Of a stretch of DNA of 64,000 nucleotides, positions 2,281 through 45,341 are shown piece after piece (position 1 is the stretch's first letter; each line of letters opens with the position of its first letter). A program made the position numbers and the translations under genes. Origin of the DNA: a virus (Duplodnaviria; Heunggongvirae; Uroviricota; Caudoviricetes); IMG/VR virus record IMGVR_UViG_3300033463_000046; one strand, 5' to 3'. The notes beneath the pieces are model-generated. The model was not told the DNA's origin. It saw only the letters and a program-made list of their open reading frames with translations, and made no database searches.

Positions 2281-2370
2281 TGGTTGGGATAGTAGGATTC
2301 GAACCCACACTTACGCCTTCAGAGGGCTACGGATTTAGAGTCCGCTGTGCTACCATTACACCATATCCCA
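2281..2370 (-). tRNA. suppressor tRNA, anticodon CTA (reads UAG); type II, about 20-nt variable arm; CCA encoded
   Basis: Reverse complement folds as acceptor tgggata/tatccca, D-stem gtgt/gcac, anticodon stem gcgga/tccgt with loop ctCTAaa, long variable arm, T-arm gtggg-ttcgaat-cctac, discriminator a, then cca. Confidence 0.8.
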
Positions 2371-10692: not shown

Positions 10693-11330
10693 GGTTGAAA
10701 TTCCTTGGACTACTGCCGGCCAATTCTTGTAGTCCTAAAATGCTCCCGTGGTTCACCTGCACGTTGCTTCAGTAATGAGGCGGTGGGAGTGCATGTGTTG
10801 CGAACACTCTATTGAAATATTATAGAGGACTGTGCGACGAACTGACGAACCAAATTTCCCAGCAATGGGCGGCAGGCATCGTGTCGTTAGGATAAACCAG
10901 TAATGGTATAAAGTGGTGAGACCTCTCACTGCACACCCTTTGCCGACTTGTCGGGAGGATGGCTAAAAGAATGCGCATTTATCGAAGTGATACATGGTGT
11001 AAGGACGGGCAGTCCTGATAGTGTTGATCGCTGGGCTCTGACTAAGCTCGGCTTAATCCGTAAGGAGGATAAGAGATAATTGCAAATGTTTCCCGAAGAC
11101 CGCAAATCTGAGAGAGCATTAAGTATGTAGTTTGTAAGCCTATGGGAGTAGCGTCCCACTCAGCCTGCTAAGCTGAGAGAACAGAAATGGTAGGTTTGTA
11201 GAACGGAGATACAGAGAAGTATGTGATTGCAAGCAGAAAATCATGGTGGGGCTGGTCCTGTAGCTGCTCAAAAGGCAGTATGGATACAAGTGCAGCCACC
11301 TCACCTTACAACTAGTCCTTCTTTAAAATA
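10693..11330. ncRNA. candidate structured non-coding region upstream of a tRNA
   Basis: No ORFs and higher GC. Perfect hairpins ggactac..gtagtcc, ctctat..atagag, gtgaga-cc-tctcac, ccgac-tt-gtcgg. Confidence 0.25.
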
Positions 11331-11333
11331 AAG

Positions 11334-11407
11334 AGTCGTTTAGCTCAATTGGTAGGAGCGCAACACTATTAATGTTGAGGCCGTCAGTTCAAGTCTGACA
11401 ACGAATT
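11334..11407 (+). tRNA. tRNA, Asn-like body with anticodon loop ctATTaa (anticodon ATT, atypical)
   Basis: Acceptor agtcgtt/aacgaat (one G-A mismatch), D-arm gctc-aattggta-gagc, anticodon stem caaca/tgttg, T-arm gtcag-ttcaagt-ctgac. Paralogous to tRNAs at 23372 and 30165. Confidence 0.6.
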
Positions 11408-11409
11408 AG

Positions 11410-12210
11410 GATCGCATAAGAAGAAGTAAAAAAAGCAAAAGCGCTGCACACGCTAGATTTAAAATGGTGGTTATCTCCGCTGCCTACCTTTCAAGCTTCG
11501 GCTGTGAGAGGGGAAGATGCGGGTGAGGAGGGGTCGCAAGCCCTGATTCAAGTATTGTGAATAGCAACAGGTATAAGAGGGGGCACCTTCTGTAACTTCC
11601 GGCAGGAGACCTGGGTTTGAAGCAGCTATGAAGTCTAGTGTAGTTTTCGCAAGTTTTTATGAAAGCTTGTCCCCATGACATCTACCAGCAGAAGTGTTGG
11701 TGTGTAAGTACCTCGTAAACAAGGGATATAATGGTGTCACAAAGAGTCATATACTCAGCTCTTTACTTGCCTAGTTAGCTCAGATACTATAAGAGCGTTT
11801 CCTGGATGGAAAAGGTCGGGGGTGTAAATCCTTCACTAGGCACATTGGATTTTTCTTTAAAGCCATTTAGTTCTTCACACTGTGAAGTATGATAGAACGG
11901 AAGGTAGTTTAAGTGACATTGGGATGTGCATATTTTAGTGTCCGAGTTAAAACACGATTTCTTATATAAATCGTATGAGAGGGGCGGATCCTCTCCCTTC
12001 CACAATTCCGAGTTTAAATAAATTGGAGAGTTCGGAACTCCAAAGAGTTTTTGGTAGCCTTGCCGATCGGTGAGGAAGTGTGTTCGCTTGCAAGAAGAAA
12101 CAGTTTCCATACTGGCTTTAGTTATTGTAAGAAAGCGTTCGCGCGTCCCCTCAGTCAGAAATGGCTGAGGGTTTTATTTGGTAATTTATTTACAATAACA
12201 TAAATTTATT
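11410..12210. ncRNA. candidate structured non-coding region
   Basis: About 800 nt without ORFs; track ORFs on the minus strand are short and stop-ridden. GC-rich hairpins. Confidence 0.25.
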
Positions 12211-13219: not shown

Positions 13220-14140
13220 ATGCGAAAATTAAACGAAGTATTCTTCGCCAAGGACGGCGAGTATGGTTTGACTGAAACACAGGCAAGCCACCTTTGTGCT
13301 CTCGCAGCTCAAATCAAAGAACAATATGAAGCAACATTGCAGAATGTGAGCTTTGTAAACACTACGATGTCAATTGTAGGTGAGCAAGGAGAACACATAA
13401 CAGATGCAGGTTACACAGACTTGCAAATCATTGAAGAGGCTATTGCTAAGGTCTCAAGTATGAACGCATTTATCAGCTGGTTTGCTGAGGCACGTAAAGA
13501 GCTTGAAGAGTATCGTACTGCACGTACTCGTTACGATCTTACTGGATGGTGTGAGGAAGTTGGGAAGAAATATCCCGATTCTCCTGAGAACCACATTAAT
13601 GATGTAACAATGTCAACTCTCGAAGATATTGTCAACGAGATGAACATTAAGGACAGACAAACTTATCTTGCACTTGAGGCTAAGAGTGCAGTGTATGGTA
13701 AGTTTATCCATCCTCGCAATCCAATGGAACTTGCTCGTAACAAGATGCATAAGATTGCTAAGGCTCCTTATGCAACTCAAGGTAGTGGACGTGACACGCT
13801 CATTTATCATTATGAGCCATCTGTGAATGTTGAGAGTGTTGATACTCTGTACAACAAACTCCAAGCTGAGTATCGTGAAACAGAGCAGAAACTCAATCAC
13901 ATGAAATCCGACTTGCGTAAGAAGTTGGATGCCAAGAACATTGAGGAGAATAACAAGAAGCAAGAGAAGATCGCAGAATATCGCAAAGCTTATGATGATT
14001 ATCATAATGAGCTGACTCAGTTGACCGCAGAGTACAACAAGTGGTTAACTGAAGAGAATGCGAGAATTGCTCAGTATCGCTTCGTTATTCCTGAGAAACT
14101 TGCAGAGACTGAGAAGTATCTGAAGAATCTTGGGAAATAA
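13220..14140 (+). CDS. hypothetical protein
   Basis: 306-aa ORF. Confidence 0.6.
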   Translation: MRKLNEVFFAKDGEYGLTETQASHLCALAAQIKEQYEATLQNVSFVNTTMSIVGEQGEHITDAGYTDLQIIEEAIAKVSSMNAFISWFAEARKELEEYRTARTRYDLTGWCEEVGKKYPDSPENHINDVTMSTLEDIVNEMNIKDRQTYLALEAKSAVYGKFIHPRNPMELARNKMHKIAKAPYATQGSGRDTLIYHYEPSVNVESVDTLYNKLQAEYRETEQKLNHMKSDLRKKLDAKNIEENNKKQEKIAEYRKAYDDYHNELTQLTAEYNKWLTEENARIAQYRFVIPEKLAETEKYLKNLGK

Positions 14141-14492
14141 ATCCTCTAGGATAGGTTAAGAGACTTGACCTTGCCACTATTGGTTTTACAACCTTTGTGT
14201 GGGTCCAAGGTCTAACTCTTATTTGAGAAATGAAGGACTAGCACCCTACATTGTAAGTATCAGGACATTAAAGAATCTGCCCTTATAAGGCGGACTTATT
14301 CGATCAGAGATCGAATGTTACTTCTAGACAGCACATACGAAATACAACTTTTGGCTTTCGAGCTGCCCCAACGGAATTACTCTAAATCTTTCTTGTTGGG
14401 CTCAGTCTAAGTCTCAGTTGTATGTGCTGGTCTCAGTTCCTGATTCAGACTCAGACTGCACGCTGAGTCTTTCAGTTCTACTATCCTAACTA

Positions 14493-14564
14493 GCAGGTGT
14501 AGCACAATGGTTAGTGCATCAGTTTGCCATACTGGGGACGGGAGTTCGATTCTCCTCACCTGCT
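14493..14564 (+). tRNA. tRNA-Gly (GCC)
   Basis: Acceptor gcaggtg/cacctgc, D gcac-aatggtta-gtgc, anticodon loop ttGCCat, T-arm gggag-ttcgatt-ctcct. Confidence 0.8.
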
Positions 14565-14845
14565 CTAACTTTTATGTGGTATAGTGTAAGGGTAGTCTTA
14601 CATTATCTGGATAATGTTAAAATGGGTATAGTTACATGAGATAAGAGTAGTCCAGAATGCTCCTCTGAAGTTATGTACCTTGAAGATGTAGCACGATATG
14701 AGCGTATGCTCATATTGAGAGAGTTCGAGTCTCTCTACCACAACTAGATAATAGAAGTTAAACATTTAAAATAGTTATAATTATGAAGAAGTATTTACGA
14801 AAACGCTTGTTAGGTTACACCGAGATCTAACAGCTCCAATCGTAT

Positions 14846-14936
14846 ATCGGTAAGTGCGTGGAAACAGGCGGATTACATCGGGCTTTTAACCCGAATAGCA
14901 GGGTTCGACTCCCTGTTGGAGCACAAATCAACTCCT
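14846..14936 (+). tRNA. atypically long (91 nt) tRNA-Lys(TTT)-like gene with about 19 extra nt in the D region
   Basis: Perfect acceptor gctccaa/ttggagc; anticodon arm tcggg-ctTTTaa-cccga; T-arm caggg-ttcgact-ccctg. 36 nt lie between acceptor and anticodon stem where 17 are expected. Confidence 0.45.
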
Positions 14937-15460
14937 GCGAGGAAGATTAACGGCAGATTCTATCACTACTGGAGAAGTCATATTCTAGACTAAAACTTCT
15001 CATAACAGTATATTCAAATGGATGTGGTTAGACCTGATGTCAGTCTAGAATGACTGATGGAAGTTGAACATCTTAGAATTCACTGATCACCACCGCTAAC
15101 TGAGGTGGAGGAAGCAAGTTCGACTCTTGCCCTCGCAACATATTCCGAATAGTTATTCATAGTTGCCTATTGGAGACTGACTGCTCCTTTAGGAATGGGT
15201 GATTCAACGTTCAGAGTTAAACTCCTACTGTACAGTCAGATGGTAGGTGCTCCAGAGTTCGCCTGATGGGTTCAAGGAGCATTTTTAAAGAATCAACAAG
15301 TCCATTTACTTAAGTTGCAGTTGTTAAAATAATGAAGCTAACAAAAACAATGAACGCCTTAGTATAAACTTTTTTGAGATAAACTACTTACTCTTGCTTC
15401 AGAGAAGTGCATCTAAGTTGGGAAGACCATTGGGTTATGGTTCCGTTAGAAGATGCAATT

Positions 15461-15532
15461 GCGGGTATAGCACAACGGTTAGTGTAGGAGATTTCCAATC
15501 TTCTGATGTGGGTTCGATTCCCATTACCCGCT
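15461..15532 (+). tRNA. tRNA-Gly (TCC)
   Basis: Acceptor gcgggta/tacccgc, anticodon loop ttTCCaa, T-arm gtggg-ttcgatt-cccat. Confidence 0.8.
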
Positions 15533-15960
15533 CTATAATTTATGATGTATGATACGTAGAATTACAGAAGTTCGAGAAACTACTATTTATGTCGGAGACA
15601 AGCTGATAGTAGTGAAAGAAGAAGTCCACACAATTAGGATTCTTCCAGACACACCCGAGGATTAGCTGCATCTTCCTCGTTAAAATCGCGATGTAGCCGC
15701 AGAGATCCGGCACTGGTGTTAAGCGTCCGGTCATTCTTCGACCAGAATTTTCTTTTGAAATAAAGAAGCTGGCAGAGCTCAAAAGAGTGAATGCCTCTAG
15801 GATGGTAACCTGGAGGCTTTTTCTTTGAAAGTCTGATTTTGCTCATAATAGGTTGGAAAAGTTGAGAATTATCTATAATATCGCATGATATATCAATAGA
15901 TAATTTCTCAACTATTCCGGATTCATGTTGAGAACTAAATTAATTAAACGTTTAATTATT

Positions 15961-17190
15961 ATGAATGAAATTTAGAAATTTAAGCAAGGAAGAAAAGTAC
16001 TTTCTGCTAAATTCGGTGACAATTTTAAAAGAGTTGGCACAGCAAGTAATGGTTTATCTGGTATATATTTCAATCCTGACGATAATCAATTATGGAAAGG
16101 TGGATTAACTGGATATAGTAGAATAGGAGATACATATAGTTATTATTCAGGATTAGGAGGAGGTGTTATTAAAGCTTCTGACTACATTGAAAAGCCTAAG
16201 ACAGGAGTTACTACAAGAACTTCTAGTAATCCAGGTGAAATAGTAGTTAATGGTAAAAGATACGCCTCGAAAGCTGATTGGGTAAAAGAACAAAGAGCAC
16301 AAAGAGAACAACAACCATAGGAAGTAGTAATAACTGGTAGGGCTGGTAAAAGATCTGCTTCTAAAGTCACACCAAGAGGTCAGGGATATTGGGATAAACA
16401 ATACCAAGATTTCTTAGGTAAGATGACTGACGATTAGAAAGCGTGGTTAGCATAGAGAGGTATTGATTATAATTCTGCTCAACAAATGCAAACTTATTTA
16501 GCTAATCATGGTCAAGATCTTGGTAAATGGGGTGCTGATGGTAAATGGGCAGGTGCTTCCCAAGCAGCTTGGGATAATTTCGTTGCAACAACAATGAAGA
16601 ATAATCCTTTACAAACTCCTGTAAGAGATCCACAACCTACAGTTGAACCAGTAGTTGATGCTGCAGACCCATTCGGATATAAGACATCTAATCATTATGG
16701 TGATGGCTTTGCTTTAAAGAATATGGGATTCAGTAATTATGCTGGATTACAAAAATTTGCTATGGGTGATGATCAATTTGCTAAAGACTTACGTGAAAGA
16801 TTTGGTCAAGATGTAAGTCAGTGGGATCAAGCAGCTGTAGAAGGCGCATTGAATGTAAGTGGTCGTTATCGTGGTGGTAGAAGTGGCGACTTTGGTGATA
16901 TGGCTCGTAGTATGCAAGATTGGGCTGCTAAGAAAAATGCTGCATATGATCAAAAAGAATTAGCTTCTAGAACTGGTGCAAGTGGTACAACATATTCTTC
17001 TCCAGAAATGATGAAGAAATTTGAGAGTATTAAAATATCCCCAGAAGTTAAATATGGTTAGAGTACTAAGTTTGATTTTAGTAATATGAAGTTTAATTCT
17101 GGATTTGGTAATACTGGCACTAATACTCTTGGAGATGCTGGGGCAGGTACTATGAACAATCAAAAACAATTAGCATATGCGGATAAGTAA
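15961..17190 (+). CDS. peptidoglycan-binding-domain protein with in-frame TAG codons (recoded)
   Basis: One frame from ATG 15961 through track ORF 16486-17061 to TAA at 17188. In-frame TAG at codon 5 and four more. Motif MQTYLANHGQDLGKWGADGKWAGASQAAWDNFV resembles PG_binding_1. Confidence 0.5.
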
Positions 17191-18235
17191 ATTACAATAC
17201 GGAAATTCACTTTTGGAGGCAAGTAATCGACAAAGAGGAAAAGTTCAAGCTTGGGGTAATAGAGGTATTCAGCAAGTTGGTATGCAAGCTAAACAAGCTG
17301 AAGAAGAAGTTATTCAATATAAAAAAGCTACTGCTCGTGCTAATAAGAAGACAAAGACTCCTATGTAGTCAAATAACTTGGCTAAACTTCAAGACCAATT
17401 ATGGAGAATTGGAGCATTCAAAGGAGTTAAAGATAGAAGAGGAAATGAATCTACATACTAGACTGCTGTTGATGGTATCAAAGGTAATATGACCAATACT
17501 GCTATTGCTAATGCTCAGAAAATGGGTTTCACTATTAACAATGATGGTAGTCTTAGTAAGACATCTGATACATCATCAAAAGTCACAAGTACTGCTAAAA
17601 CACCAGAATAGTCTTCTAAAAAGACTAGATTTATGACATCTAGTGGTCCAATGATGCCTGCTCAAGTAATGGCACAAGCTTCAGAAGCTATTGCTAATAA
17701 CAAGACACTACAAAATACTGCAGACTTCTTAGGACATAATCCTGCTGCTATGGCTTTAGAAGATTTAGATAGAGCTACTTCAAACCGTTTAGCTGAATCA
17801 TTATTTGGTATAAGACCTTTCAAAGGTAGAACTGTTACTCGTTTACCTAATCTATAGACTGAGGAATTAAAGAAATAGGTTTTATTTGCTAGAAGTAAAG
17901 GTTAGAATAACTTTAATTCTGATATGTATAAAGCTATGTATGGTTATAATTATGCGTCTCGTAATGGAAAAGGTGGACAAGATAGAAGTGGATTTTGGAA
18001 TAGAATGGATACTCCTACGGGACGTCTTGAGCATACATTAGGTGCTTATGGTTTTTATGTAGATAATAATGGTGACACAATAGTTGAGGATACATACGAT
18101 TTTAATGTTGGACAAAAATAGGGAGGAGATGGAAGATATGCTGTAACCCGTAATTTCTTAGGAGAATTCGGAAGCAAATCTACTGATCCTAACGAGGGTA
18201 AAATCAAATATAGGATTAATTTAGGTAAATTATGA
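17177..18235 (+). CDS. peptidoglycan-binding-domain protein with multiple in-frame TAG codons (recoded)
   Basis: Track ORFs 17177-17368, 17633-17857 and 17924-18121 share one frame and are separated only by TAGs; the frame ends at TGA 18233-18235. LQDQLWRIGAFKG...DGIKGNMTNTAIANAQKMGF is PG_binding_1-like. Confidence 0.5.
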
Positions 18236-18528
18236 CGAATGATTTGATTTCTAATCCCAGTACTGAAGCAGATTACTACTGTAATTTAATTATTAAAACT
18301 TCTGATGATATCGCTAAAGATATAGGAGTTTCTTATAGTGAATTATGGATAGGAATTATGCTTCTCGTGATTACTATAATAGGCTATTATATTGTAGTAT
18401 CATGTGGTTCCCTCTATTCTAAATATAAAACACTATTTAAGTGGATGTTTTGGATAGGAATAATCTTTATAGGAGTATTGATATTCATCTTTATGAGTAT
18501 AGTATCGACACTCTACGTAAATCCTTGA
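18232..18528 (+). CDS. membrane protein (holin-like candidate)
   Basis: 98 aa with two hydrophobic segments; ATGA overlap with the upstream gene; adjacent to the amidase. Confidence 0.5.
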   Translation: MTNDLISNPSTEADYYCNLIIKTSDDIAKDIGVSYSELWIGIMLLVITIIGYYIVVSCGSLYSKYKTLFKWMFWIGIIFIGVLIFIFMSIVSTLYVNP

Positions 18529-18548
18529 ATAGCCAAGGATTTAATATC

Positions 18549-18621
18549 GCGGGATAACTGGAGGTGGTTCCCAGACTAGGCTCATAACCTAGAAACGTTG
18601 GTTCGAGTCCGACTCCCGCTA
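18549..18621 (+). tRNA. tRNA with CAT anticodon (Met/fMet/Ile-lysidine class)
   Basis: Acceptor gcgggat/ctcccgc (6 of 7 pairs), D ctgg-aggtggttc-ccag, anticodon arm ctagg-ctCATaa-cctag, T-arm gttgg-ttcgagt-ccgac. Confidence 0.65.
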
Positions 18622-18627
18622 CACATC

Positions 18628-18707
18628 GTGGTCGAGTGAAACTGGATAGTTATAAATCACACTAGTCTCATAAGCTAGGAATAACAGGTTCGACTCCTGT
18701 GACCGCA
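18628..18707 (+). tRNA. tRNA-like with CAT anticodon, 80 nt, extended D region
   Basis: Acceptor gtggtcg/tgaccgc (2 GU), anticodon arm ctagt-ctCATaa-gctag, T-arm cagg-ttcgact-cctg. About 7 extra nt lie 5' of the anticodon stem. Confidence 0.45.
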
Positions 18708-18819
18708 ACACTTATTAAAATTATTGTTAAACAACGGTGCTGTCGTGAGACAGTCGTGTTATCCTTTACGTCGCAAGACGTGCTTTGTCATAGGCTTTGG
18801 GGACAGTGGTCTCCTAAAT

Positions 18820-18892
18820 AGCAGTATAGCTTAGCGGCCTAAAGCGCAGCACTCATAATGCTGAGATCGTAGGTTCGAATCCAACTACTGCT
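18820..18892 (+). tRNA. tRNA with CAT anticodon
   Basis: Acceptor agcagta/tactgct, D gctt-agcggccta-aagc, anticodon arm cagca-ctCATaa-tgctg, T-arm gtagg-ttcgaat-ccaac. Confidence 0.75.
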
Positions 18893-18928
18893 ACGCTTTT
18901 GATTTTTGATAGGTATAGCATAAAAAAA

Positions 18929-18962
18929 GGTAGCCATTCGTGAGAACAGCTACCTTATTTTT
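18929..18962. terminator. bidirectional intrinsic terminator
   Basis: ggtagc-cattcgtgagaaca-gctacc flanked by an A-run upstream and ttattttt downstream. Sits between the convergent tRNA array and the amidase gene. Confidence 0.6.
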
Positions 18963-19556
18963 GTAAGTATTTTAAAATACCTTCAACATGAAGTCTTACA
19001 ATATCTTGAAAACCTCTGTCACTAAGGAGATAATCAACATCTGATTTATTATCTTGGAAGAAGTTTTCAGTAAGAACAGCAGGACAAATAGTATGTTTAA
19101 GAACATATAAATGTGCTTCCTTATCTGGATCTCCATCAGAAAAATCAGTGCGCATTCTTTTATCTTGTGCATTATATTTGGCAGCATTATACAAACAGGT
19201 AGCTAAATCATCTGCTTTTGTTTTACCAGGAGTAGTATAAACTTCCCAGCCTGTTCCAGTGTGCCATTTACCATCTGATGATGCAGCATTAACATGAATA
19301 CTTACATATATGCAATCCCCATATACTTTGCATAAATCATTTACAACCTTACAACGTAGACAAAGTTCCTATGATTGAGTAACATTTAAATCATCATCTT
19401 CAATGTCTATAAATACCTAATAACCATAATCCTATAGGATTGCTTTTACTGCTGCAACAATTTCTCTAGAATAAGCGTATTCTTTAAGTCTTTTGTCTGG
19501 TGAACATTTACCAGGTGTACTTTTTAAATGTGCAGTACCTAAAATAATTGTTTTCA
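18955..19556 (-). CDS. N-acetylmuramoyl-L-alanine amidase (Amidase_3-like endolysin) with 3 in-frame TAG codons
   Basis: Minus-strand ATG at 19556. MKTIILGTAHLKSTPGKCSPDKRLKEYAYSREIVAAVKAIL-x-DYGY-x-VFID...VSIHVNAASSDGKWHTGTGWEVYTTPGKTKADD..., where x marks a TAG. This continues into track ORF 18955-19194 and ends at TAA. Shows the Amidase_3 blocks. Confidence 0.75.
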
Positions 19557-19642
19557 TAGTAAAATAGTTATTTAATTTGTTTAACATAAATCTGAATACT
19601 AAATTAGTCAAAATTGTCTCTAACTAAAAATTATTTATTATT

Positions 19643-19861
19643 ATGATAGGAATTTATGTAATAGGAGTCGTTTTAACATTTATTATATCTATTGCTCTTT
19701 GTCGGTATGATGAAAAAAGATATAATAGCGACATGCAATATGAAATGTGTGCTGCAATCTCTCTATTCTCATGGATAGGATTAATAGGATTAGCAATAGC
19801 ATATAGAAATGAAATAAGAACAGTTCTGAGGACACGTAAGTGTAGCAATGTACCACGTTAA
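19643..19861 (+). CDS. small membrane protein
   Basis: 72 aa with two TM-like segments. Confidence 0.45.
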   Translation: MIGIYVIGVVLTFIISIALCRYDEKRYNSDMQYEMCAAISLFSWIGLIGLAIAYRNEIRTVLRTRKCSNVPR

Positions 19862-19994
19862 GAAGTACGCGTGAGTGGTACTACGCTGGTGGGCCGTCTC
19901 ATTAAACATCGAAATCCAAAATCGCGATACGGATTAGAGTCACTATTGAGATAGGAAAGGTGAAAGACCTTTAAGTAAGAACTGTTCTTTCCTC

Positions 19995-20066
19995 GGGAGT
20001 GTAGCGTAATTGGCTAACGTGCCTCCCTGTCACGGAGGAGTTCGGGGTTCGAGTCCCCCACTTCCG
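19995..20066 (+). tRNA. tRNA-Asp (GTC)
   Basis: Acceptor gggagtg/cacttcc, D gcgt-aattggcta-acgt, anticodon arm cctcc-ctGTCac-ggagg, T-loop ttcgagt. Confidence 0.75.
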
Positions 20067-20183
20067 GCTAAAAAACCAGTCCACGAGTTCCGTTGAAAGC
20101 TCGCATAGCATAGGACTTAATTTATACATCGTTAACGGAGATGTATGATTAGCAGGGTTTTGTGGTTATTCCCTGCAAAGCTT

Positions 20184-20257
20184 GCCCCAATAGCTTTAAT
20201 TGGTAGAGCAGCTGACTTGTAATCAGCAGGTTGTCGGTTCGAGTCCGGCTTGGGGCT
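20184..20257 (+). tRNA. tRNA-Thr (TGT)
   Basis: Acceptor gccccaa/ttggggc, D gctt-taattggta-gagc, anticodon arm gctga-ctTGTaa-tcagc, T-arm gtcgg-ttcgagt-ccggc. Confidence 0.85.
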
Positions 20258-20298
20258 CAATTTATTTATTTATTTATTAACTTAATTAATTATTTATT

Positions 20299-20688
20299 AT
20301 GGCTAATTTATTTATTTTAAAAACAGTTCATGACAATGGTGAGTACAACGTTTGCTTAGGAGAATCTTATAGCAAAATTCATTTAACTGGTATTAAAGAT
20401 ATATCAGATAATTGTGCTACACATGAGATTATTCGAGAGTGTGCAGAATATATTAATGAAACTGACCATCCTTTCGATACTTTAGATTTTGTTGTTTCTG
20501 GAGATGGTAATGTTTATGATTTGTCCAGAAATCCTTGGGGATTTGAAACTGGTGTTAAATGTTATTACATAACTTTAGGTGGAAATACTGTTGATAAAAT
20601 TGTCCCTAAAGAGTATGAGAAAGAAGAACTTGATGAAGTTTGGAAGGAACTCATTGATGATCCTGATTTAAATTGGGATTGGGATTAG
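20299..20688 (+). CDS. hypothetical protein
   Basis: 129-aa ORF. Confidence 0.55.
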   Translation: MANLFILKTVHDNGEYNVCLGESYSKIHLTGIKDISDNCATHEIIRECAEYINETDHPFDTLDFVVSGDGNVYDLSRNPWGFETGVKCYYITLGGNTVDKIVPKEYEKEELDEVWKELIDDPDLNWDWD

Positions 20689-20714
20689 TAATTTGTGGAT
20701 TAATTCCACAAACA

Positions 20715-20798
20715 GGGCACGCGCCGAAGTTGGAGAGTCGGGCTTGACTGTAAATCAAGTGCCTTACGGCTGAGTAGGTTCGAATCCTACCGGGCCCA
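20715..20798 (+). tRNA. tRNA-Tyr (GTA), type II
   Basis: Acceptor gggcacg/cgggccc (one mismatch), 3-bp D-stem, anticodon arm cttga-ctGTAaa-tcaag, long variable arm, T-arm gtagg-ttcgaat-cctac. Confidence 0.7.
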
Positions 20799-20827
20799 CA
20801 AAAAATACTTATCAAAAACTCTTAATT

Positions 20828-21088
20828 ATGAAAAGATTCTATTTCAAAAAGCTTAAGGGAAAAGTAAATCCCAATCCACGTAGGTTTACTCTAGACATTT
20901 ATGAGAGGTATCTTACTGAAGAAGACAAAGTTCATGTAATTCATTGCGTGAATAGAGTAGATTTCAATAAGACTTTAAACTTCTTAAAGATGCACATATT
21001 CTTAAACATTAGTACTGATGATAAAGAGTTGTTAATCTATATGCCAAAGAGTTATATCTTAATGGTGGAGAGTGTCTCAGATGTCTGA
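20828..21088 (+). CDS. hypothetical protein
   Basis: 86-aa ORF ending in hairpin gtctcag-atg-tctgagac. Confidence 0.5.
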   Translation: MKRFYFKKLKGKVNPNPRRFTLDIYERYLTEEDKVHVIHCVNRVDFNKTLNFLKMHIFLNISTDDKELLIYMPKSYILMVESVSDV

Positions 21089-21096
21089 GACATTTC

Positions 21097-21171
21097 GGAC
21101 GCTTAGTTCAGCTGGTTCAGAATACTAGTCCTACAAACTAGAGATCGATGGTTCGAATCCATCAGTGTCCA
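21097..21171 (+). tRNA. tRNA, anticodon loop ccTACaa (Val-TAC by standard numbering; C33 atypical)
   Basis: Acceptor ggacgct/agtgtcc, D gttc-agctggttca-gaat, anticodon stem ctagt/actag, T-arm gatgg-ttcgaat-ccatc. Confidence 0.65.
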
Positions 21172-21187
21172 CTTAAACTCTCTCATT

Positions 21188-21469
21188 ATGAAAATATTCA
21201 TTTTAAAAGTTAAAAGAGAAATACTTAGAATGCAGTTAAAGTATCTTTACTTTAGGTTGCTAATAGCAAGAATATCTATTTATGGTTTTATACCAGGATG
21301 TATGAAATGCAACGTTAATCCAATAATGTTTGTGTTACTCTTACTAATGATTCCGGTATTTATTCTTGGAAGTATTCTCAAACCAGTTGCAATTCCTTGT
21401 TATGGTACAATCATAGCTATACTATTGCCGATTGTAGTTATGCAAGAAATATCCTCACATAAGAAATAG
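21188..21469 (+). CDS. small membrane protein
   Basis: 93-aa hydrophobic ORF. Confidence 0.45.
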   Translation: MKIFILKVKREILRMQLKYLYFRLLIARISIYGFIPGCMKCNVNPIMFVLLLLMIPVFILGSILKPVAIPCYGTIIAILLPIVVMQEISSHKK

Positions 21470-21663
21470 GGGTACTATTCTCAGGTACAATACTAGTTAG
21501 GTTCTTAGAGGACTGGCCAGGGCTTGTGTACGGCTTACTAGAGCAGTATGTGCACAAATAAATCCAACAGCTAACTTGGTTTACAATTATTAGAGACTTA
21601 CTTAGAGAGGCTGTTGATCTAAGAAGTCTCAGGTTTTAGATGACTCAGTATTAACTAATACTA

Positions 21664-21900
21664 TTGCTTATGATAGTTATTTATTTGAGTGGTAATCTTT
21701 TAGCCTTATATATGGCTTATAGGATAATACGCCATGAATGTGAATCTGACTTTCATACAAGAGTAGGAATGATTATTGGGATGGCATTCTTTTCTTGGAT
21801 AGCAGTATCTTTAATGCTTACACATTTAAAACTGCATTATAAGTGGGAAATGCAAAGAATGTTAGAAACAGCAATTAAAGAAAAAATTTTACTTCTATAG
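21664..21900 (+). CDS. small membrane protein
   Basis: 78-aa ORF with two TM-like segments. Confidence 0.45.
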   Translation: MLMIVIYLSGNLLALYMAYRIIRHECESDFHTRVGMIIGMAFFSWIAVSLMLTHLKLHYKWEMQRMLETAIKEKILLL

Positions 21901-21906
21901 TAAAGA

Positions 21907-21979
21907 CGGGGCGTGGCGCAGTAGATAGCGCGCGGCATTTGGGATGCTGAGGTCGCAGGTTTGAGCCCTGTCGCCCCGA
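21907..21979 (+). tRNA. tRNA-Pro (TGG)
   Basis: Acceptor cggggcg/cgccccg, D gcgc-agtagata-gcgc, anticodon arm cggca-ttTGGga-tgctg, T-loop tttgagc. Confidence 0.8.
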
Positions 21980-21996
21980 CAATATAAGCTTCTCAT

Positions 21997-22842
21997 TTGA
22001 GGAGCTTTTATTATTTTAGATTTATAGTTATGAAGATGAACACTCTTCTGGCAAAAGTTGATCATGCGTCAGCTTCTGCCGCAGCTATGGTCAAGGACTA
22101 TGCTGCGTTCTTCAAAACCAAGCAAGGAGCATTCCGTGGTGAGAAGAACACGTATTCCGCTGTTAACGGATACGACGAGCGCCCTGAGCGCAACACACAG
22201 ACTCGCGTACAGACAACTGTACAAGAGAAATTAGACTGGTTCGAAGAAAGATACATTCCGTATCTGAAAGAACTATTTAGCATCGAGTCTACTAATTCTG
22301 GAGATGCTTATAAGGTTGAGTTAGTTGTTGATGGAATCTCATTCGGTAAGCTGAGTGCTATCGAGTTGATGAGACTTCGAAACATCTTAACCAGTCGTGA
22401 ACTCAATACTATGTATGAGAACATTCCTGTTCGTAGTGATGCAAAGATCTATGAGAAATGTGATGATGCACAGTATGAAGGTCGAGAGATCTTCCAAACT
22501 CCTGTTCTTAAGTCAGACGAGAGAACAACTGAGAAGGAAGAAATTATCCTGAAGGATCCAAACATCGATCCTCAGCATATGCCTGCTAACTATCGTGCAC
22601 AGGTAACAGTCAAGAACAAGACTGTCAAGGTTGCTGAGACAACACATCAGGAGTTCACTGGTGAATGGACACAACGTAAACGTGCAGAACTCTTACGTCG
22701 TAAGAGTGCTATTCTTAATGCTATCACAGTTGCTTTGAAAGAAGTAAATGAGGTAGAGGCTAAGGAAGCAAATCTGAACGTTGATGCTCTTATTTCTTAC
22801 ATCCACTACGGTGGTCCAGGTAAGAACGTAAAGGTACAGTAA
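21997..22842 (+). CDS. hypothetical protein
   Basis: 281-aa ORF; the start could be the internal MKMNTLL. Confidence 0.55.
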   Translation: MRSFYYFRFIVMKMNTLLAKVDHASASAAAMVKDYAAFFKTKQGAFRGEKNTYSAVNGYDERPERNTQTRVQTTVQEKLDWFEERYIPYLKELFSIESTNSGDAYKVELVVDGISFGKLSAIELMRLRNILTSRELNTMYENIPVRSDAKIYEKCDDAQYEGREIFQTPVLKSDERTTEKEEIILKDPNIDPQHMPANYRAQVTVKNKTVKVAETTHQEFTGEWTQRKRAELLRRKSAILNAITVALKEVNEVEAKEANLNVDALISYIHYGGPGKNVKVQ

Positions 22843-23371
22843 CGAATCGACATATAGCTTTAGCTTTAAACACAACCTTCGGGTCTCAGCTTTATTTGGA
22901 TACTAGATATTTAGATTTAGCATTGTGTCGAAAAGCTTCAGCCTTGAGATTCTTATGTGGAAACCCAACATCTATTTTTTAAACCGTAAATTCGGGGGTT
23001 CGAATCCCCCATTCCCCTCACTTGTCCACGGGTCCGTCTAGTAATAGACAATGGGACATTGTAGTATCACACCGCCTCTGATACTACACGCAACCTAGTA
23101 GTGTGTGTTCTTTCTCATGCTTTGAGATATAAAGTACTAGGAAAGCTTGGAAGGAGAAGAGACGTAGCAGGTTAACTGGGAATGCAGTGCGTATAATGGC
23201 AAAGAGTGAAGGCATTCTAATCCTGAAGATAAGTCCATTAATATCCTGCCTCCTTCCTAAATGGGGAATTAGTTAAGTGGATTAAAACATACGGGAAATT
23301 TAGCTTAAAGATGTTGAACGGTAGAAGCAAACTGTCAGGCTCTCATTGCTAGGATATTTGATTGAGAGTCT

Positions 23372-23444
23372 GGGGGGTCTAGCTCAGTTGGTAGAGCGCA
23401 ACACAGTTAATGTTGAAGTCGGAGGTTCGATTCCTCCGACCTCC
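23372..23444 (+). tRNA. tRNA-Asn-like (GTT) with A33 instead of U33
   Basis: Acceptor gggggtc/gacctcc, D gctc-agttggta-gagc, anticodon arm caaca-caGTTaa-tgttg, T-arm ggagg-ttcgatt-cctcc. Confidence 0.65.
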
Positions 23445-23689: not shown

Positions 23690-23810
23690 GAAGGGGTGGT
23701 GGAATGGTAGACACGTATGTAAGTTGGTGCATATCCTAGTTATTCGTTTGAATCCGTTCTATATTCTAGTTGTTAGAGCGTTGGTTGAGAGTTCGAGTCT
23801 CTCCCCCTTC
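23690..23810 (+). tRNA. atypical 121-nt tRNA-like locus: type II 5' half and canonical T-arm/acceptor separated by extra sequence
   Basis: 5' gaagggg-tg-gtg-gaatggtaga-cac is a Leu/Ser-like start. 3' gagag-ttcgagt-ctctc plus ccccttc is perfectly complementary to gaagggg. The middle about 60 nt does not fold as a standard anticodon or variable arm. Confidence 0.35.
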
Positions 23811-23816
23811 ACAAAT

Positions 23817-34293: not shown

Positions 34294-34560
34294 GAAATGC
34301 TTTAGAAAGGACATTGCCGTCTTTTTAAAGTATTTTAACTTTGACATTAGGCAAGATGTCAGTAGTTTATCGTAGCACAGCTGAGGAATTGCAAACCTTG
34401 GTAATACTGCTATATCGTGCGGGTCTAGGCACACCACACATACCTAAGTGGTTAAATAAATGGGAAAAGCCTGGCTGGAGCTTTGTATGTTGTAGTCAGG
34501 TGCAATGGAGGAGTGGGAGAGTGGTTTATTCCAGCTGTCTTGAAAATTTATAATCTAATT

Positions 34561-35007
34561 ATGAATCCTTGGTCATCTAATTACAAATCGCATCAAGGGA
34601 ATGTAGGATTAGGTAGAGCTATAGCATACTATACAGCTCAATGTGTACCTGTCTTACTCCCACTAAATGATACTTAGAAGTATGATTTAGCAGTCGATAA
34701 AGATGGTAAGTTACAAAGAGTATCTGTAAAGACAACTCAAGGAAAGAATAAAACAGGAACTTATTATACTGTTCAATTAAAGAATAGTGGAGGAGCCTCT
34801 GGAAAGTCTGTTATAAGACATTTCGATAATAGTTCTTGTGATATTTTATTCATTGTAACTGTAGAAGGAACTATGTATGAAATACCTTCCTCTTTAATAA
34901 ATGTTAGTGCTCAACTAACTTTAACTGAAGATTGGGATGATTATATAGTCACATTAGATTGGGGTACGAGTGCTCCTGAGGAAACTCAGGAAGTAGAAGC
35001 AGGCTAA
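34561..35007 (+). CDS. PD-(D/E)XK-type nuclease-like protein with one in-frame TAG (recoded)
   Basis: MNPWSSNYKSHQGNVGLGRAIAYYTAQCVPVLLPLNDT-TAG-KYDLAVDKDGKLQRVSVKTTQGK... The frame reads through TAG at 34675-34677 to TAA at 35005. The G-x-G...YDL...VxVK pattern is typical of Hjc/Mrr-like nucleases. Confidence 0.5.
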
Positions 35008-35377
35008 TTCGGTGAAGGTTATAGCCCTATAAATATAAATAACGCCGAGCTAAATTAAGAGAACTATCGAGATTGGTAGGGATAGTACTGAAGTAGGGTA
35101 CCGATAAGCATGGGTCACAAAACCCTGAATATGTCGCAATCTATCCTATAGTTCTCTTATAAATGTGTACAGACTATACACCTGCAACCTAAACACTTTA
35201 TGTGCATGGTTAAGACATAGTCGGTCTGTTCGTAAGAACAGAGGAAAACAGCCGACCGCTAACACCGGTCCGTCGGTTCGAATCCGGCCTCCTCCGCTAT
35301 CCGAGGTTGAGGTACATACTCGATTTGTACTGTAATTGGAGGTGGTTCCTTAATAGTTTAAGGGTGTAGGATTGATT

Positions 35378-35495
35378 GGTGATATAAGACGGTATGTTGG
35401 TTAACCGAACCCTGTAGGAGGGCATAGTAGGATGTAAGCACCGTTACTTACTTAATAATACTACTATTACGAAGGTTCAATTCCTTCTATCACCA
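35378..35495 (+). tRNA. atypical 118-nt tRNA-like locus (perfect acceptor halves ggtgata/tatcacc, canonical T-arm)
   Basis: T-arm gaagg-ttcaatt-ccttc. The intervening about 85 nt contains hairpin gtaag-caccgtta-cttac but no standard D or anticodon arms. Confidence 0.3.
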
Positions 35496-35500
35496 CCTTC

Positions 35501-35588
35501 GGAGAGTTGGGTGAGTGGTTTAAACCACCGACCTGCTAAGTCGGTGTCCGCTAACAACGGGCCACTAGTTCGAATCTAGTACTCTCCG
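35501..35588 (+). tRNA. tRNA-Ser (GCT), type II
   Basis: Acceptor ggagagt/actctcc, D ggtg-agtggtttaaa-ccac, anticodon arm ccgac-ctGCTaa-gtcgg, variable hairpin ccg-ctaacaa-cgg, T-arm actag-ttcgaat-ctagt. Confidence 0.8.
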
Positions 35589-35605
35589 CAATAAATTTTT
35601 AATCT

Positions 35606-35776: not shown

Positions 35777-35865
35777 GCTGGCAGGAAATAATCTTCTATT
35801 GTGCTATAATAGCTGGACAAATAGCTATTATTTGGATATTATTTAACGAAAGAAATTTTTAAAAT

Positions 35866-38943: not shown

Positions 38944-39015
38944 GATCGTATAGCTCAATGATAGAGCAGCGGTCCTCAAAACCGAAGGTTTAGGGTTTGA
39001 ATCCCTATACGATCA
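38944..39015 (+). tRNA. tRNA with anticodon loop ccTCAaa (anticodon UCA, reads UGA/UGG); candidate opal suppressor or Trp-UCA
   Basis: Acceptor gatcgta/tacgatc, D gctc-aatgata-gagc, anticodon stem cggt/accg (4 bp), T-arm taggg-tttgaat-cccta. Position 33 is C. Confidence 0.6.
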
Positions 39016-45013: not shown

Positions 45014-45117
45014 ATAGGTGTAGTTCATGGGAATAGAACGTTGCTCAGCAGCAGACGGTAAGAAGTTATCGTGGTGTGGTGACGAGAAAGAACCAGGTTC
45101 GAGTCCTGGCACCTAGC
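45014..45117 (+). tRNA. atypical ~103-nt tRNA-like locus
   Basis: 5' ataggtg-ta-gttc-atgggaata-gaac (canonical acceptor plus D-arm). 3' ccagg-ttcgagt-cctgg plus cacctag. The middle region does not form a standard anticodon arm. Confidence 0.3.
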
Positions 45118-45341
45118 AATTTGTTTACAAAATTAAGAATGTGAGAATAATGCACTCACATGAAATCCTACAAGCATTAGTAGGGAGTCTTTATGCGTAC
45201 AAGACTATAACAAAGACACACGTTTTTGAGACAACGTAATAAACTCACGTTTAGAGTAACGTAATAAGCTCCAACTTTGTGGTAAGTTGTAAATACAAGC
45301 CAAGAGCCTTCTCAAATGGAGGCTCACTTTTATTGACTCTT

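What the first reader, a model, noticed from the sequence alone, without database searches (positions are those of the whole stretch)
14846..14936. Over-long tRNA genes: perfect 7-bp acceptor helices enclosing 80-175 nt
Several loci have a canonical T-arm plus 3' acceptor whose exact 7-nt complement lies much further upstream than 65 nt. The loci are 14846-14936 (91 nt, Lys-TTT anticodon arm intact, +19 nt in the D region), 18628-18707 (80 nt, CAT), 23690-23810 (121 nt, type II 5' half), 35378-35495 (118 nt) and 45014-45117 (about 103 nt). Possibly also 14574-14747 (tgtggta...taccaca around the T-arm at 14718-14747). Five or more exact 7-mer matches at these spacings are unlikely by chance. 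They suggest tRNAs carrying short insertions/introns, split or permuted tRNAs, or tRNA-like ends of slightly larger RNAs.
Basis: seen in the sequence. Interest (0 to 1): 0.7.

Follow-up and report, generated by a model that had tools for sequence, protein, structure and literature searches.

The report
Over-long tRNA-like RNAs in phage
A large rumen-type phage carries, among its roughly 35 ordinary tRNA genes, several longer genes that keep the ends and elbow of a tRNA but have lost or altered the decoding part, so they look like conserved tRNA mimics of unknown function and not like tRNAs with introns.

Summary
Canonical T-arms followed by a 3' acceptor strand have their complement 80-203 nt upstream. 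Five of nine such orphan elements show an exact 7-mer, against 0.13 expected. The first locus is really 14833-14924, and two listed loci have only 6 paired bases.

These are not introns. Related metagenomic phage contigs show the extra sequence is part of a conserved fold.
- 23690-23811 belongs to a family of at least 17 distinct sequences. 25 of 33 pairs show compensatory change. The acceptor, D arm and discriminator are tRNA-Leu-like, there is no conserved anticodon loop, and a 52-nt two-hairpin arm carries an invariant loop.
- 45014-45117, 18627-18708 and 14936-15138 are also conserved with compensatory changes.
- 14575-14743, 14833-14924 and 35378-35495 have no orthologue among the contigs retrieved.

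tRNA-Ser(UGA) at 34507-35297 carries a 702-nt group I intron. A circularly permuted tRNA-like domain spans 22845-23372 and has the topology of bacterial Y-RNA-like YrlA.

Best reading: tRNA-derived structured RNAs matured by the tRNA-processing pathway. Most do not decode; two may be variant decoders. Function is unknown. These are new variants of a known kind.

The parts
14833..14924 (+). A 92-nt tRNA-Lys(UUU)-like gene. Acceptor 14833-14839 with 14917-14923, discriminator A at 14924. Canonical anticodon arm 14878-14894 with TTT at 14885-14887. T arm 14899-14915. The D arm is replaced by a 38-nt segment. No orthologue was found in the relatives retrieved.
   Evidence: Rfam tRNA 26.4 bits. ARAGORN forces Ala-ggc. 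The block 14566-15138 is absent from L002 and L003.
14575..14743 (+). E1. A 169-nt tRNA-like RNA counted with its discriminator. 7-bp acceptor TGTGGTA/TACCACA, a 10-bp hairpin with a GGUA-type loop at the D position, internal hairpins, a 10-bp hairpin just before the T arm at 14719-14735, then discriminator A and CTA. No orthologue was found in the relatives retrieved.
   Evidence: MFE -54.5 kcal/mol, z = -4.8, with the acceptor and T arm formed without constraint..
14936..15138 (+). E3. A 203-nt tRNA-like RNA. Acceptor TGCGAGG/CCTCGCA and T arm 15114-15130. An orthologue in L010 shows compensatory changes in the T stem and in the hairpin before it.
   Evidence: window 14927-15284 aligns to L010 2194-2546 at 80% identity. 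T stem GCAAG/CTTGC becomes GCGGG/CCCGT. Hairpin CCACC/GGTGG becomes CCGGC/GCCGG.
18627..18708 (+). E4. An 80-82-nt tRNA(CAU) variant. C1/A72 mismatch plus a 6-bp acceptor. A 3-bp D stem with a 17-nt loop, about 8 nt longer than normal. Invariant anticodon loop CTCATAA with CAT at 18669-18671. T arm 18684-18700.
   Evidence: It is conserved in L010, L021 and L002. Compensatory changes occur in the acceptor (GGTC/GACC to GGGA/TCCC) and the D stem (TGA/TCA to TGG/CCA). L003 has a normal 76-nt tRNA-Met at this position.
23690..23811 (+). E6. A 122-nt tRNA-Leu-derived RNA. Acceptor 23690-23696 with 23804-23810 and discriminator A. Leu-type D arm. A hairpin at the anticodon position whose loop is not conserved and is 6-10 nt long. 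Two extra hairpins, the second with the invariant loop ATATTCTAGT at 23761-23770. T arm 23787-23803. It ends 6 nt before tRNA-Phe.
   Evidence: 17 sequences, 94.6% of cells paired, 25 of 33 pairs compensatory, at most 8 in slid controls. Rfam tRNA 37.5 bits with the anticodon arm skipped; family members 83-137 bits, next best tRNA-Leu at 40-56..
35378..35495 (+). E8. A 118-nt tRNA-like RNA. Acceptor GGTGATA/TATCACC, D-like hairpin CGGT/ACCG, a short 4-bp hairpin with a 5-nt loop at the anticodon position, a roughly 50-nt extra arm, and T arm 35471-35487. It ends 5 nt before tRNA-Ser(GCT). Absent from relatives.
   Evidence: Rfam tRNA 29.1 bits. L051-L054 carry unrelated spacers or other tRNAs here. 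It scores only 19.4 bits with the E6 model.
45014..45118 (+). E9. A roughly 104-nt tRNA-like RNA. 6-bp acceptor, canonical D arm GTTC-ATGGGAATA-GAAC, no anticodon loop, a conserved GAAG-capped hairpin, and T arm 45093-45109. A conserved hairpin TGTAG-TTGCAG-CTACA precedes it.
   Evidence: four genomes, with compensatory changes in the D and T stems and A-U/G-C/G-U variation in the acceptor.
34507..35297 (+). E7. tRNA-Ser(UGA) interrupted in the anticodon loop by a roughly 700-nt group I intron at about 34543-35244. This explains the orphan T arm at 35272-35288.
   Evidence: Rfam Intron_gpI at 34929-35242, 46 bits, E = 1e-8. The insertion 34547-35243 is absent in L051, L052 and L053. ARAGORN in intron mode calls tRNA-Ser(tga) with a 702-nt intron starting at tRNA position 37.
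22845..23372 (+). E5. A circularly permuted tRNA-like RNA gene. The parts, in genomic order:
- upstream conserved domain from 22845;
- helix strand CAACATCT 22966-22973;
- anticodon-stem strand CCGTA 22984-22988;
- variable loop 22989-22993;
- T arm 22994-23010;
- 3' acceptor ATTCCCC 23011-23017;
- discriminator T 23018;
- mosaic linker 23019-23262;
- 5' acceptor GGGGAAT 23263-23269;
- D arm 23272-23288;
- TACGG 23290-23294;
- AGATGTTG 23309-23316;
- terminal hairpin 23337-23371, abutting tRNA-Asn at 23373.
   Evidence: at least 24 loci have the exact 7-mer partner downstream and never upstream, with 10 different acceptor sequences; 19 sequences, 94.4% paired, 24 of 29 pairs compensatory; the linker is 19-252 nt and modular.

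Best explanation
The window is part of a roughly 197-kb phage genome of rumen-metagenome type. Its tRNA island holds ordinary tRNAs and also a set of tRNA-derived structured RNA genes.

Each over-long gene keeps the acceptor stem and T arm. Most also keep a D arm, so the tRNA elbow is preserved. This is the part read by RNase P, the 3' end-trimming enzymes and the CCA-adding enzyme. The decoding part is altered in one of three ways:
- It is replaced, as in 14575, 14936, 35378 and 45014.
- It has degenerated alongside a large elaborated extra arm, as in 23690.
- It is left intact next to an abnormal D region, as in 14833 (UUU) and 18627 (CAU).

Proposed mechanism (inferred):
1. The genes are co-transcribed head to tail with the neighbouring tRNAs.
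2. The tRNA-like top half directs 5' cleavage by RNase P, 3' trimming and CCA addition.
3. This releases and stabilises discrete RNAs of 80-200 nt. Their non-tRNA domains are the functional payload.
4. The tRNA-Leu-like member may additionally still be recognised by LeuRS, which does not read the anticodon.

Shown here: the helices, their conservation and covariation, the lack of a conserved anticodon loop, the tRNA-Leu ancestry, the tight packing and the shared 3' trailer.

Inferred, not shown: transcription, processing, stability, any charging, and the biological role.

The two members with intact anticodon arms may still decode.
For: - Non-chance acceptor pairing.
- 23690-23811: 17 distinct orthologues, 94.6% of cells paired, and 25 of 33 pairs compensatory against at most 8 when partners are slid.
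- In the same family the loop at the anticodon position varies in both length (6-10 nt) and sequence between close relatives.
- Its covariance model separates members (83-137 bits, one per genome) from the next-best hits. Those are canonical tRNA-Leu genes at 40-56 bits.
- Its D arm and discriminator A match the phage's own tRNA-Leu genes.
- 45014 shows compensatory changes in the D and T stems across four genomes.
- 14936 shows compensatory changes in the T stem and the hairpin before it, compared with L010.
- 18627 shows compensatory changes in the acceptor and D stem in three relatives, with an invariant CAU loop.
- Every element folds into acceptor plus T arm without constraints.
- Spacers to adjacent tRNAs are 5-11 nt.
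- 3' trailers follow the same pattern as the canonical tRNAs, namely discriminator, C, A or T, then A. The background frequency of that trinucleotide is 3.5%.
- No terminator-like site lies inside the 14.5-15.5 kb or 22.8-23.9 kb blocks.
- Established knowledge, not tested here: RNase P, RNase Z and the CCA-adding enzyme recognise the acceptor/T-arm minihelix. Bacterial LeuRS identity rests on A73 and D-arm tertiary structure, not on the anticodon or the variable arm.
Against: - There are no expression or end-mapping data.
- 14575, 14833 and 35378 have no orthologue in any relative retrieved, so selection on them is untested. They could be recent decay products.
- The set is heterogeneous, so one mechanism may not cover all members.
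- Full conservation of the D arm and elbow in 23690 and 45014 exceeds what processing alone needs. That points to an additional, unidentified partner.
- Pfam scans of about 30 window ORFs found no RNA-handling partner protein.
- 14936 rests on only 2 sequences and 45014 on only 4.
Confidence: 0.6

Rival explanations
1. The elements are decaying tRNA pseudogenes. They would be duplicated tRNA genes in a fast-evolving array that picked up insertions and are drifting without function.
For: - 14575, 14833 and 35378 have no orthologue among the relatives retrieved. They sit in indel-prone spacers.
- The array composition differs greatly between relatives.
- All 20 amino acids are already covered by canonical tRNAs.
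- At the 18627 position one relative, L003, has a normal-length tRNA-Met.
Against: - 23690, 45014, 14936 and 18627 are retained over 70-97% nucleotide identity, with compensatory changes in the tRNA helices and in the extra helices.
- An invariant 10-nt loop is kept in all 17 members of the 23690 family.
- Even the elements without orthologues keep perfect 7-bp acceptors, perfect T arms and canonical 3' trailers.
Confidence: 0.12
2. They are real decoding tRNAs carrying introns or removable insertions that are spliced out to give normal tRNAs.
For: - Intron-containing tRNAs do occur in this lineage. One is the group I intron in tRNA-Ser(UGA) at 34507-35297.
- Another is a roughly 455-nt insertion carrying a PD-(D/E)XK ORF in the tRNA-Ser(GCT) orthologue of L051.
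- ARAGORN in intron mode returns calls for 23690 and 45014.
Against: - Outside 34929-35242 there is no Rfam intron or ribozyme match.
- The extra segments are only 8-130 nt, too short for self-splicing introns. Bacteria have no known protein-dependent tRNA splicing pathway (established knowledge).
- The extra segments covary as helices.
- The anticodons ARAGORN proposes are not conserved. GTT becomes GTC in L013, L018 and L020.
- Removing any single segment from 23690, 35378 or 45014 does not leave a 5-bp stem with a 7-nt anticodon loop.
Confidence: 0.05
3. They are pure punctuation signals. The tRNA-like structures would exist only to direct RNase P and RNase Z cleavage of a long transcript, as plant mitochondrial t-elements do. 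The RNAs themselves would have no function.
For: - They are packed tightly between tRNAs and ORFs on one strand.
- Their 3' trailers are shared with canonical tRNAs.
- Plant mitochondrial t-elements set a precedent for tRNA-like processing signals (PMC1920247, listed from its title and abstract only).
Against: - Processing needs only the acceptor/T-arm minihelix. Yet 23690 and 45014 conserve the full D arm, extra hairpins with covariation and an invariant loop.
- Most of these elements are flanked by canonical tRNAs, which could already provide cleavage sites.
Confidence: 0.15

Closest known systems
Phage T4 stable RNAs species 1 and 2 (rnaC and rnaD), encoded in the T4 tRNA cluster.
   Same: They are small stable RNAs of about 120-140 nt encoded among phage tRNA genes and co-processed with them. 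They have a tRNA-like acceptor end and no known function or decoding role.
   Different: No sequence relation was tested. The elements here include a tRNA-Leu-derived family with a complete D arm and elbow and a conserved extra arm. There are also many more of them per genome.
YrlA, the bacterial Y-RNA-like tRNA mimic (Rfam RF02553)
   Same: The permuted element at 22845-23372 has the same order of parts as the YrlA consensus. That order is stem strand, variable loop, T arm, closed acceptor hairpin, D arm, stem strand. A related contig carries a weak true YrlA match at L016 390-504, 39.3 bits, E = 1.5e-7 when the 270-520 stretch was searched alone.
   Different: - There is no YrlA model hit on E5 in the window or in relatives with short linkers.
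- E5 has a 7-bp acceptor closed by a 19-252-nt mosaic linker, not a 3-5-nt loop.
- It has a canonical discriminator and trailer, which suggests cleavage into two pieces.
- No Rsr/TROVE gene was found in the window.
Two-piece (circularly permuted) tmRNA
   Same: The gene order is T arm and 3' acceptor, then an intervening segment, then the 5' acceptor. tRNA-processing enzymes are expected to cut out the intervening segment and leave two base-paired pieces (PMC11915505).
   Different: - E5 has a full D stem and no G3-U70 pair.
- Its discriminator is U.
- I found no tag reading frame by inspecting two members, and there is no tmRNA_permuted hit on E5.
- The phage already has a standard tmRNA at 48804-49173.
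- Permuted tmRNA is known from alpha- and beta-proteobacteria, cyanobacteria and organelles, not from phages.
GOLLD and ROOL large ornate RNAs of phage tRNA islands
   Same: They are structured non-coding RNAs of unknown function encoded next to tRNA arrays in phages. GOLLD linkers sometimes contain tRNAs (PMC12286853; PMC5737381). The window itself has a GOLLD-like match enclosing a tRNA at 11244-11761.
   Different: The over-long elements are much smaller, at 80-200 nt. They are built on a tRNA scaffold and match no GOLLD or ROOL model.
Bacterial and phage tRNAs with group I introns in the anticodon loop
   Same: tRNA-Ser(UGA) at 34507-35297 is a standard example.

Membership tests
Canonical decoding tRNA (tested on 23690-23811 and 45014-45118) | A 7-bp acceptor stem, a T arm with the TTCRANN loop, and a D arm with GG | tested here: met
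   The acceptor of 45014 has only 6 bp.
Canonical decoding tRNA (tested on 23690-23811 and 45014-45118) | A 5-bp anticodon stem closing a 7-nt loop, with U33 and an anticodon conserved among orthologues | tested here: not met
   In 23690 the loop is 6-10 nt and varies in sequence among 17 orthologues. The Rfam tRNA model skips this arm. In 45014 a 4-5-nt loop sits at this position.
Canonical decoding tRNA (tested on 14833-14924 and 18627-18708) | An anticodon arm with a 7-nt loop and U33 | tested here: met
   The loops are CTTTTAA and CTCATAA, the latter invariant in four genomes.
Canonical decoding tRNA (tested on 14833-14924 and 18627-18708) | A D arm of normal size, with a 3-4-bp stem and a 7-11-nt loop | tested here: not met
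   In 14833 a 38-nt segment replaces the usual 19-20 nt. In 18627 a 3-bp stem closes a 17-nt loop. Rfam tRNA scores are 26.4 and 22.8 bits, below the gathering score of 29.
Intron-containing tRNA (tested on the listed loci) | An insertion with a recognisable self-splicing intron fold, absent from intron-less orthologues, whose removal restores a cloverleaf | tested here: not met
   There is no intron or ribozyme match at these loci. The inserted segments are retained and covary in orthologues. The feature is met only at 34507-35297.
YrlA / Y-RNA-like (tested on 22845-23372) | A permuted tRNA-like module in the order T arm, closed acceptor, D arm, enclosed by a stem that carries the RNA termini | tested here: met
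   compared with the YrlA consensus.
YrlA / Y-RNA-like (tested on 22845-23372) | A match to the family covariance model, including the Rsr-binding helix | tested here: not met
   RF02553 gives no hit on E5 in the window at E up to 10, nor in relatives with 19-21-nt linkers at E up to 1.
YrlA / Y-RNA-like (tested on 22845-23372) | Genomic linkage to an rsr (Ro60/TROVE) gene | tested here: inconclusive
   No TROVE domain appears in about 30 window ORFs, nor in the precomputed Pfam lists of the related loci for which gene tables were returned. About two thirds of the roughly 197-kb genome was not available.
Two-piece tmRNA (tested on 22845-23372) | A G3-U70 alanine identity pair and a tag reading frame that ends at a stop codon | tested here: not met
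   Position 3-70 is G-C, C-G or A-U in all 19 sequences. I found no conserved tag frame by inspecting the downstream pieces of the window and L028 only. ARAGORN and RF04321 give no call here.
tRNA-Leu, by ancestry (tested on 23690-23811) | A type II D arm of the form TGGTGGAAT(T)GGTAGACAC and discriminator A73 | tested here: met
   Alignment with four phage tRNA-Leu genes. tRNA-Leu genes are the best non-member hits of the family model.
tRNA-Leu, by function (tested on 23690-23811) | Aminoacylation by LeuRS | not testable with these tools
   This needs an in vitro charging assay or charged-tRNA sequencing.

The most novel reading that the evidence does not exclude
The conserved members are non-decoding tRNA mimics that the host still treats as tRNAs. 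This applies above all to the tRNA-Leu-derived 122-nt RNA and to the permuted Y-RNA-like element 700 nt upstream of it.

On this reading they are CCA-tailed and, for the Leu-like one, charged by LeuRS. The phage would then use them off the ribosome. Possible uses are as an amino-acid donor, as a sponge or regulator of a tRNA-binding host factor, or as subunits of a multi-RNA assembly.

One lead for an assembly: the CUAG-containing loop AUAUUCUAGU of the Leu-like RNA is complementary to the block ACUAGAUAU of the permuted element, except for one bulged base. ACUAGAU is invariant among the relatives aligned and the remainder is nearly so. Because neither block varies enough, covariation cannot test this pairing.
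Probability: 0.18. Interest if true: 0.85.

Novelty: new variant of a known kind. Interest (0 to 1): 0.6.

Why it matters
Phage tRNA islands are usually annotated as plain lists of tRNAs. Here the same island also encodes several conserved RNA families built on a tRNA chassis but without a decoder. They have strong covariation, and automatic tools either miss them or mislabel them, for example as tRNA-Ala(ggc) or tRNA-Asn with an intron.

If they are matured and perhaps charged like tRNAs, phages would be reusing the host tRNA-processing and recognition machinery for non-translational RNAs. These elements would then sit beside GOLLD, ROOL and Y-RNA-like RNAs as unexplained RNA cargo of tRNA islands.

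Practically, the 23690 family and the permuted element are ready-made seeds for new RNA family models. They are also testable substrates for RNase P, the CCA-adding enzyme and LeuRS.

Tried and rejected
- Near-identity search of 14000-22000 against 50,697 phage records found no match.
- A protein search with the 306-aa neighbour against the same records found only two distant hits.
- The exact 3' end of 14575-14742, and a 14936 motif, found nothing in IMG/VR.
- The conserved hairpin upstream of 45014 gave 15 IMG/VR hits. Only one is a true orthologue, and it lies on a contig already held.
- I used the 474-aa protein at 36744-38168 to find syntenic contigs. Its homologues sit in unrelated phage contexts, so four look-ups were wasted.
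- Pfam scans of about 30 ORFs found no RNA-handling enzyme and no TROVE domain.
- The promoter scan showed no enrichment over shuffles.
- I considered whether the second extra hairpin of 23690 is a displaced anticodon arm reading UAG, because its invariant loop contains CUA. I rejected this for three reasons. The loop is 12 nt. The closing pairs that would give a 7-nt loop fail in several orthologues. A 9-bp bulged stem at the variable-arm position is geometrically incompatible with decoding.
- I considered a CTAG/CTAG pseudoknot in 23690. It is weakened because L020 and L038 lack the upstream CTAG.
- I considered that 22994-23018 is a duplicated tRNA 3' end, like an att site. I rejected this because the D arm, anticodon-stem equivalent and extension helix covary across the permuted junction.
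- A look-up of the 100%-identical protein, meant to identify the source sample, returned nothing.
Full report
**Context**

The window is AT-rich, at 37% G+C. On the plus strand it carries 33-35 canonical tRNA genes and a standard tmRNA at 48804-49173. These are interspersed with small ORFs and replication-type genes: SF2 and DnaB-like helicases, RNase H, AAA ATPases and adenylosuccinate synthetase.

It has no close match among 50,697 deposited phage genomes. It has many relatives among metagenome contigs, most of them JGI series that I take to be rumen-derived on my own reading of their identifiers, plus ENA and Logan assemblies. A 100%-identical protein is recorded on a 196.7-kb contig, and relatives lie on contigs of 110-190 kb. 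I conclude that this is the tRNA island of a large uncultured phage.

**Checking the observation**

I scanned for a canonical T arm followed by 7 nt and looked for the complement upstream. Nine T-arm plus 3'-acceptor elements are not explained by normal tRNAs.

Five have an exact Watson-Crick 7-mer partner 40-260 nt upstream:
- 14575-14742
- 14833-14924
- 14936-15138
- 23690-23811
- 35378-35495

Shuffling the upstream segments gives 0.13 expected. The maximum was 3 in 2000 trials, and none reached 5.

Two listed loci are not exact 7-mers. 18627-18708 has a C1/A72 mismatch plus 6 pairs. 45014-45118 has a 6-bp acceptor. One perfect case, 14936-15138, was not listed. All elements fold into acceptor plus T arm without constraints.

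**Comparative evidence**

I retrieved related contigs in three ways:
- through the neighbouring proteins at 13220-14140, 21997-22842 and 41483-42550;
- by BLAST of the elements against those contigs;
- by alignment of the matches.

*23690-23811 (E6).* There are 17 distinct orthologues, down to about 70% identity. On my structure 94.6% of cells pair and 25 of 33 pairs show compensatory change. Slid controls give at most 8 such pairs, and no shuffle reached the observed score.

The helices are:
- a 7-bp acceptor, which takes six different sequences;
- a D stem;
- a hairpin at the anticodon position;
- two extra hairpins;
- the T stem.

The loop at the anticodon position varies from 6 to 10 nt and in sequence, even between close relatives. 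No anticodon is conserved, and the Rfam tRNA model simply skips this arm. In contrast, the 12-nt loop of the second extra hairpin contains the invariant ATATTCTAGT.

The D arm TGGTGGAAT(T)GGTAGACAC and discriminator A match the phage's own tRNA-Leu genes. With a covariance model of the family, members score 83-137 bits and occur once per genome. The next-best hits are tRNA-Leu genes at 40-56 bits. 35378-35495 scores only 19 bits. E6 is therefore a discrete, conserved, tRNA-Leu-derived RNA that cannot decode in the normal way.

*45014-45118 (E9).* Orthologues exist in three other contigs. The D stem (GTTC/GAAC to GTCT/AGAC) and the T stem show compensatory changes, and the acceptor shows A-U, G-C and G-U. 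A GAAG-capped hairpin is conserved, and the anticodon position carries a loop of 4-5 nt.

*14936-15138 (E3).* There is a full orthologue in L010, with compensatory changes in the T stem and in the hairpin before it.

*18627-18708 (E4).* It is retained in L010, L021 and L002. The acceptor and the 3-bp D stem show compensatory changes. The CTCATAA loop is invariant and the D loop is enlarged. L003 has a normal 76-nt tRNA-Met at this position. E4 may be a working CAU tRNA with an unusual D loop.

*14575, 14833 and 35378 (E1, E2, E8).* No orthologue was found among the contigs retrieved. The block 14566-15138 is missing from L002 and L003. The 35.3-35.5 kb spacer holds unrelated sequence or other tRNAs in L051-L054. 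Their function cannot be tested by conservation.

A real intron-containing tRNA exists. The orphan T arm at 35272-35288 belongs to tRNA-Ser(UGA) at 34507-35297, which is split by a roughly 700-nt insertion.
- The insertion matches the Rfam group I intron model at 46 bits, E = 1e-8.
- It is absent from three relatives.
- ARAGORN in intron mode calls the gene.

A real permuted tRNA-like gene also exists. The T arm at 22994-23010 is followed by ATTCCCC, and the complement GGGGAAT lies downstream at 23263, followed by a D arm.
- In at least 24 related loci the exact partner is always downstream, by 19-252 nt, and never upstream. Ten different acceptor sequences occur.
- I re-ordered the two halves into tRNA order and aligned 19 distinct sequences. 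On that alignment 94.4% of cells pair and 24 of 29 pairs are compensatory. This covers the acceptor, the D stem, a 5-bp anticodon-stem equivalent (CCGTA/TACGG in the window) and an 8-bp extension helix.
- The linker that closes the acceptor is mosaic. It can be present or absent between otherwise identical genomes.

The order of parts is that of the Rfam YrlA (Y-RNA-like) consensus and of two-piece tmRNA genes (PMC11915505). However, E5 matches neither model, has no G3-U70 pair, and showed no tag frame in the two members I inspected. No Ro/TROVE gene was seen in the window.

**Mechanism**

Several features are shared between the canonical tRNAs and the over-long elements:
- strand;
- spacers of 5-11 nt to adjacent tRNAs;
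- no terminator-like site inside the blocks;
- a common 3' context, namely discriminator, C, A or T, then A, against a 3.5% background for that trinucleotide.

Together with the conserved acceptor/T-arm top half, this argues that the RNAs are cut out of polycistronic transcripts by the tRNA maturation machinery and stabilised as tRNA-like molecules. The non-tRNA domains would be the functional part.

Conservation of the whole elbow and of exactly the LeuRS-relevant features in E6 suggests an additional tRNA-specific partner. That step is inference.

The alternatives and their probabilities:
- pseudogenes, 0.12, mainly relevant to the three elements without orthologues;
- spliceable insertions, 0.05;
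- pure punctuation signals, 0.15.

**Comparison with known systems**

The closest known cases are:
- T4 species 1 and 2 stable RNAs (from my own knowledge);
- YrlA;
- two-piece tmRNA;
- the GOLLD and ROOL RNAs of phage tRNA islands.

Four literature searches found no description of these particular families. I rate the finding as a new variant of a known kind, phage-encoded tRNA mimics. Interest is 0.6. The structures are solid and partly unexpected, but their function is unknown.

Noticed in passing
window 11244-11842: A divergent GOLLD-like RNA scores 54 bits, E = 3e-13 when the 11150-11850 stretch was searched alone (1.8e-11 in the 42-kb scan), below the Rfam gathering score of 150. A tRNA (anticodon ATT, 11334-11407) is embedded in its linker. 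A further tRNA at 11769-11842 scores 40.6 bits in Rfam but was missed by ARAGORN.
   Followed up: partly
window 2281-2370 (- strand), 38944-39016, and 36606: Suppressor-type tRNAs with anticodons CTA and TCA are present. The gene at 36210-38168 has a single in-frame TAG at 36606, while its homologues are uninterrupted proteins of 680-800 aa. This suggests amber read-through or recoding in this phage.
   Followed up: partly
window 23019-23262; L007, L012, L015, L021, L025: The linker inside the acceptor loop of the permuted element is built from mosaic modules shared in different combinations between genomes. One example is a roughly 95-nt module at window 23157-23249, 92% identical to part of L007. 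L014 and L015 differ only by the presence or absence of a 138-nt insert. The modules match no Rfam family.
   Followed up: partly
L016 390-504: A related phage contig has a Y-RNA-like (YrlA) match at 39.3 bits, E = 1.5e-7, between two tRNAs. I did not search the window specifically for an orthologue.
   Followed up: no
L016 4717-4788, L018 1403-1473, L019 6946-7017, L031 11120-11191, L002 17817-17887, L007 2368-2438, L021 8739-8814: ARAGORN reports tRNAs with 6-nt or 8-nt anticodon loops (2- or 4-base 'anticodons') in relatives. They sit at positions that flank the permuted element and the tRNA-Leu-like RNA. The window has a normal tRNA-Asn at the first of these positions.
   Followed up: no
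L051 5985-6438: In a relative, the orthologue of tRNA-Ser(GCT) (window 35501-35589) is interrupted by a roughly 455-nt insertion. The insertion encodes a 136-aa PD-(D/E)XK (PDDEXK_5) protein. This points to mobile insertions that target tRNA genes in this lineage.
   Followed up: no
window 15139-15460: The segment between 14936-15138 and tRNA-Gly(TCC) is non-coding. Its first roughly 146 nt (15139-15284) are conserved in L002, L003 and L010 at 80-86% identity and contain a long hairpin (GACTGACTGC.../...GGACAGTCAGC). It may be another structured RNA.
   Followed up: no
whole window: CTAG is under-represented overall, at 133 observed against 187-213 expected. It is about 2.4 times denser inside the RNA genes. 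It recurs in conserved loops or helices of 23690 (ATTCTAGT), 14936 (ATTCTAGAC and GTCTAGAAT) and the permuted element (ACTAGAT and GCTAGGAT).
   Followed up: partly
window 35853-36081: This segment aligns to the PP-binding (acyl-carrier-like) genes of L051, L053 and L054 and lies just downstream of the 35.3-35.6 kb tRNA-like cluster. In L053 that gene has a neighbouring RNA-ligase-domain gene, and an ORF with a faint amidoligase hit lies about 0.7 kb upstream of the pair.
   Followed up: no
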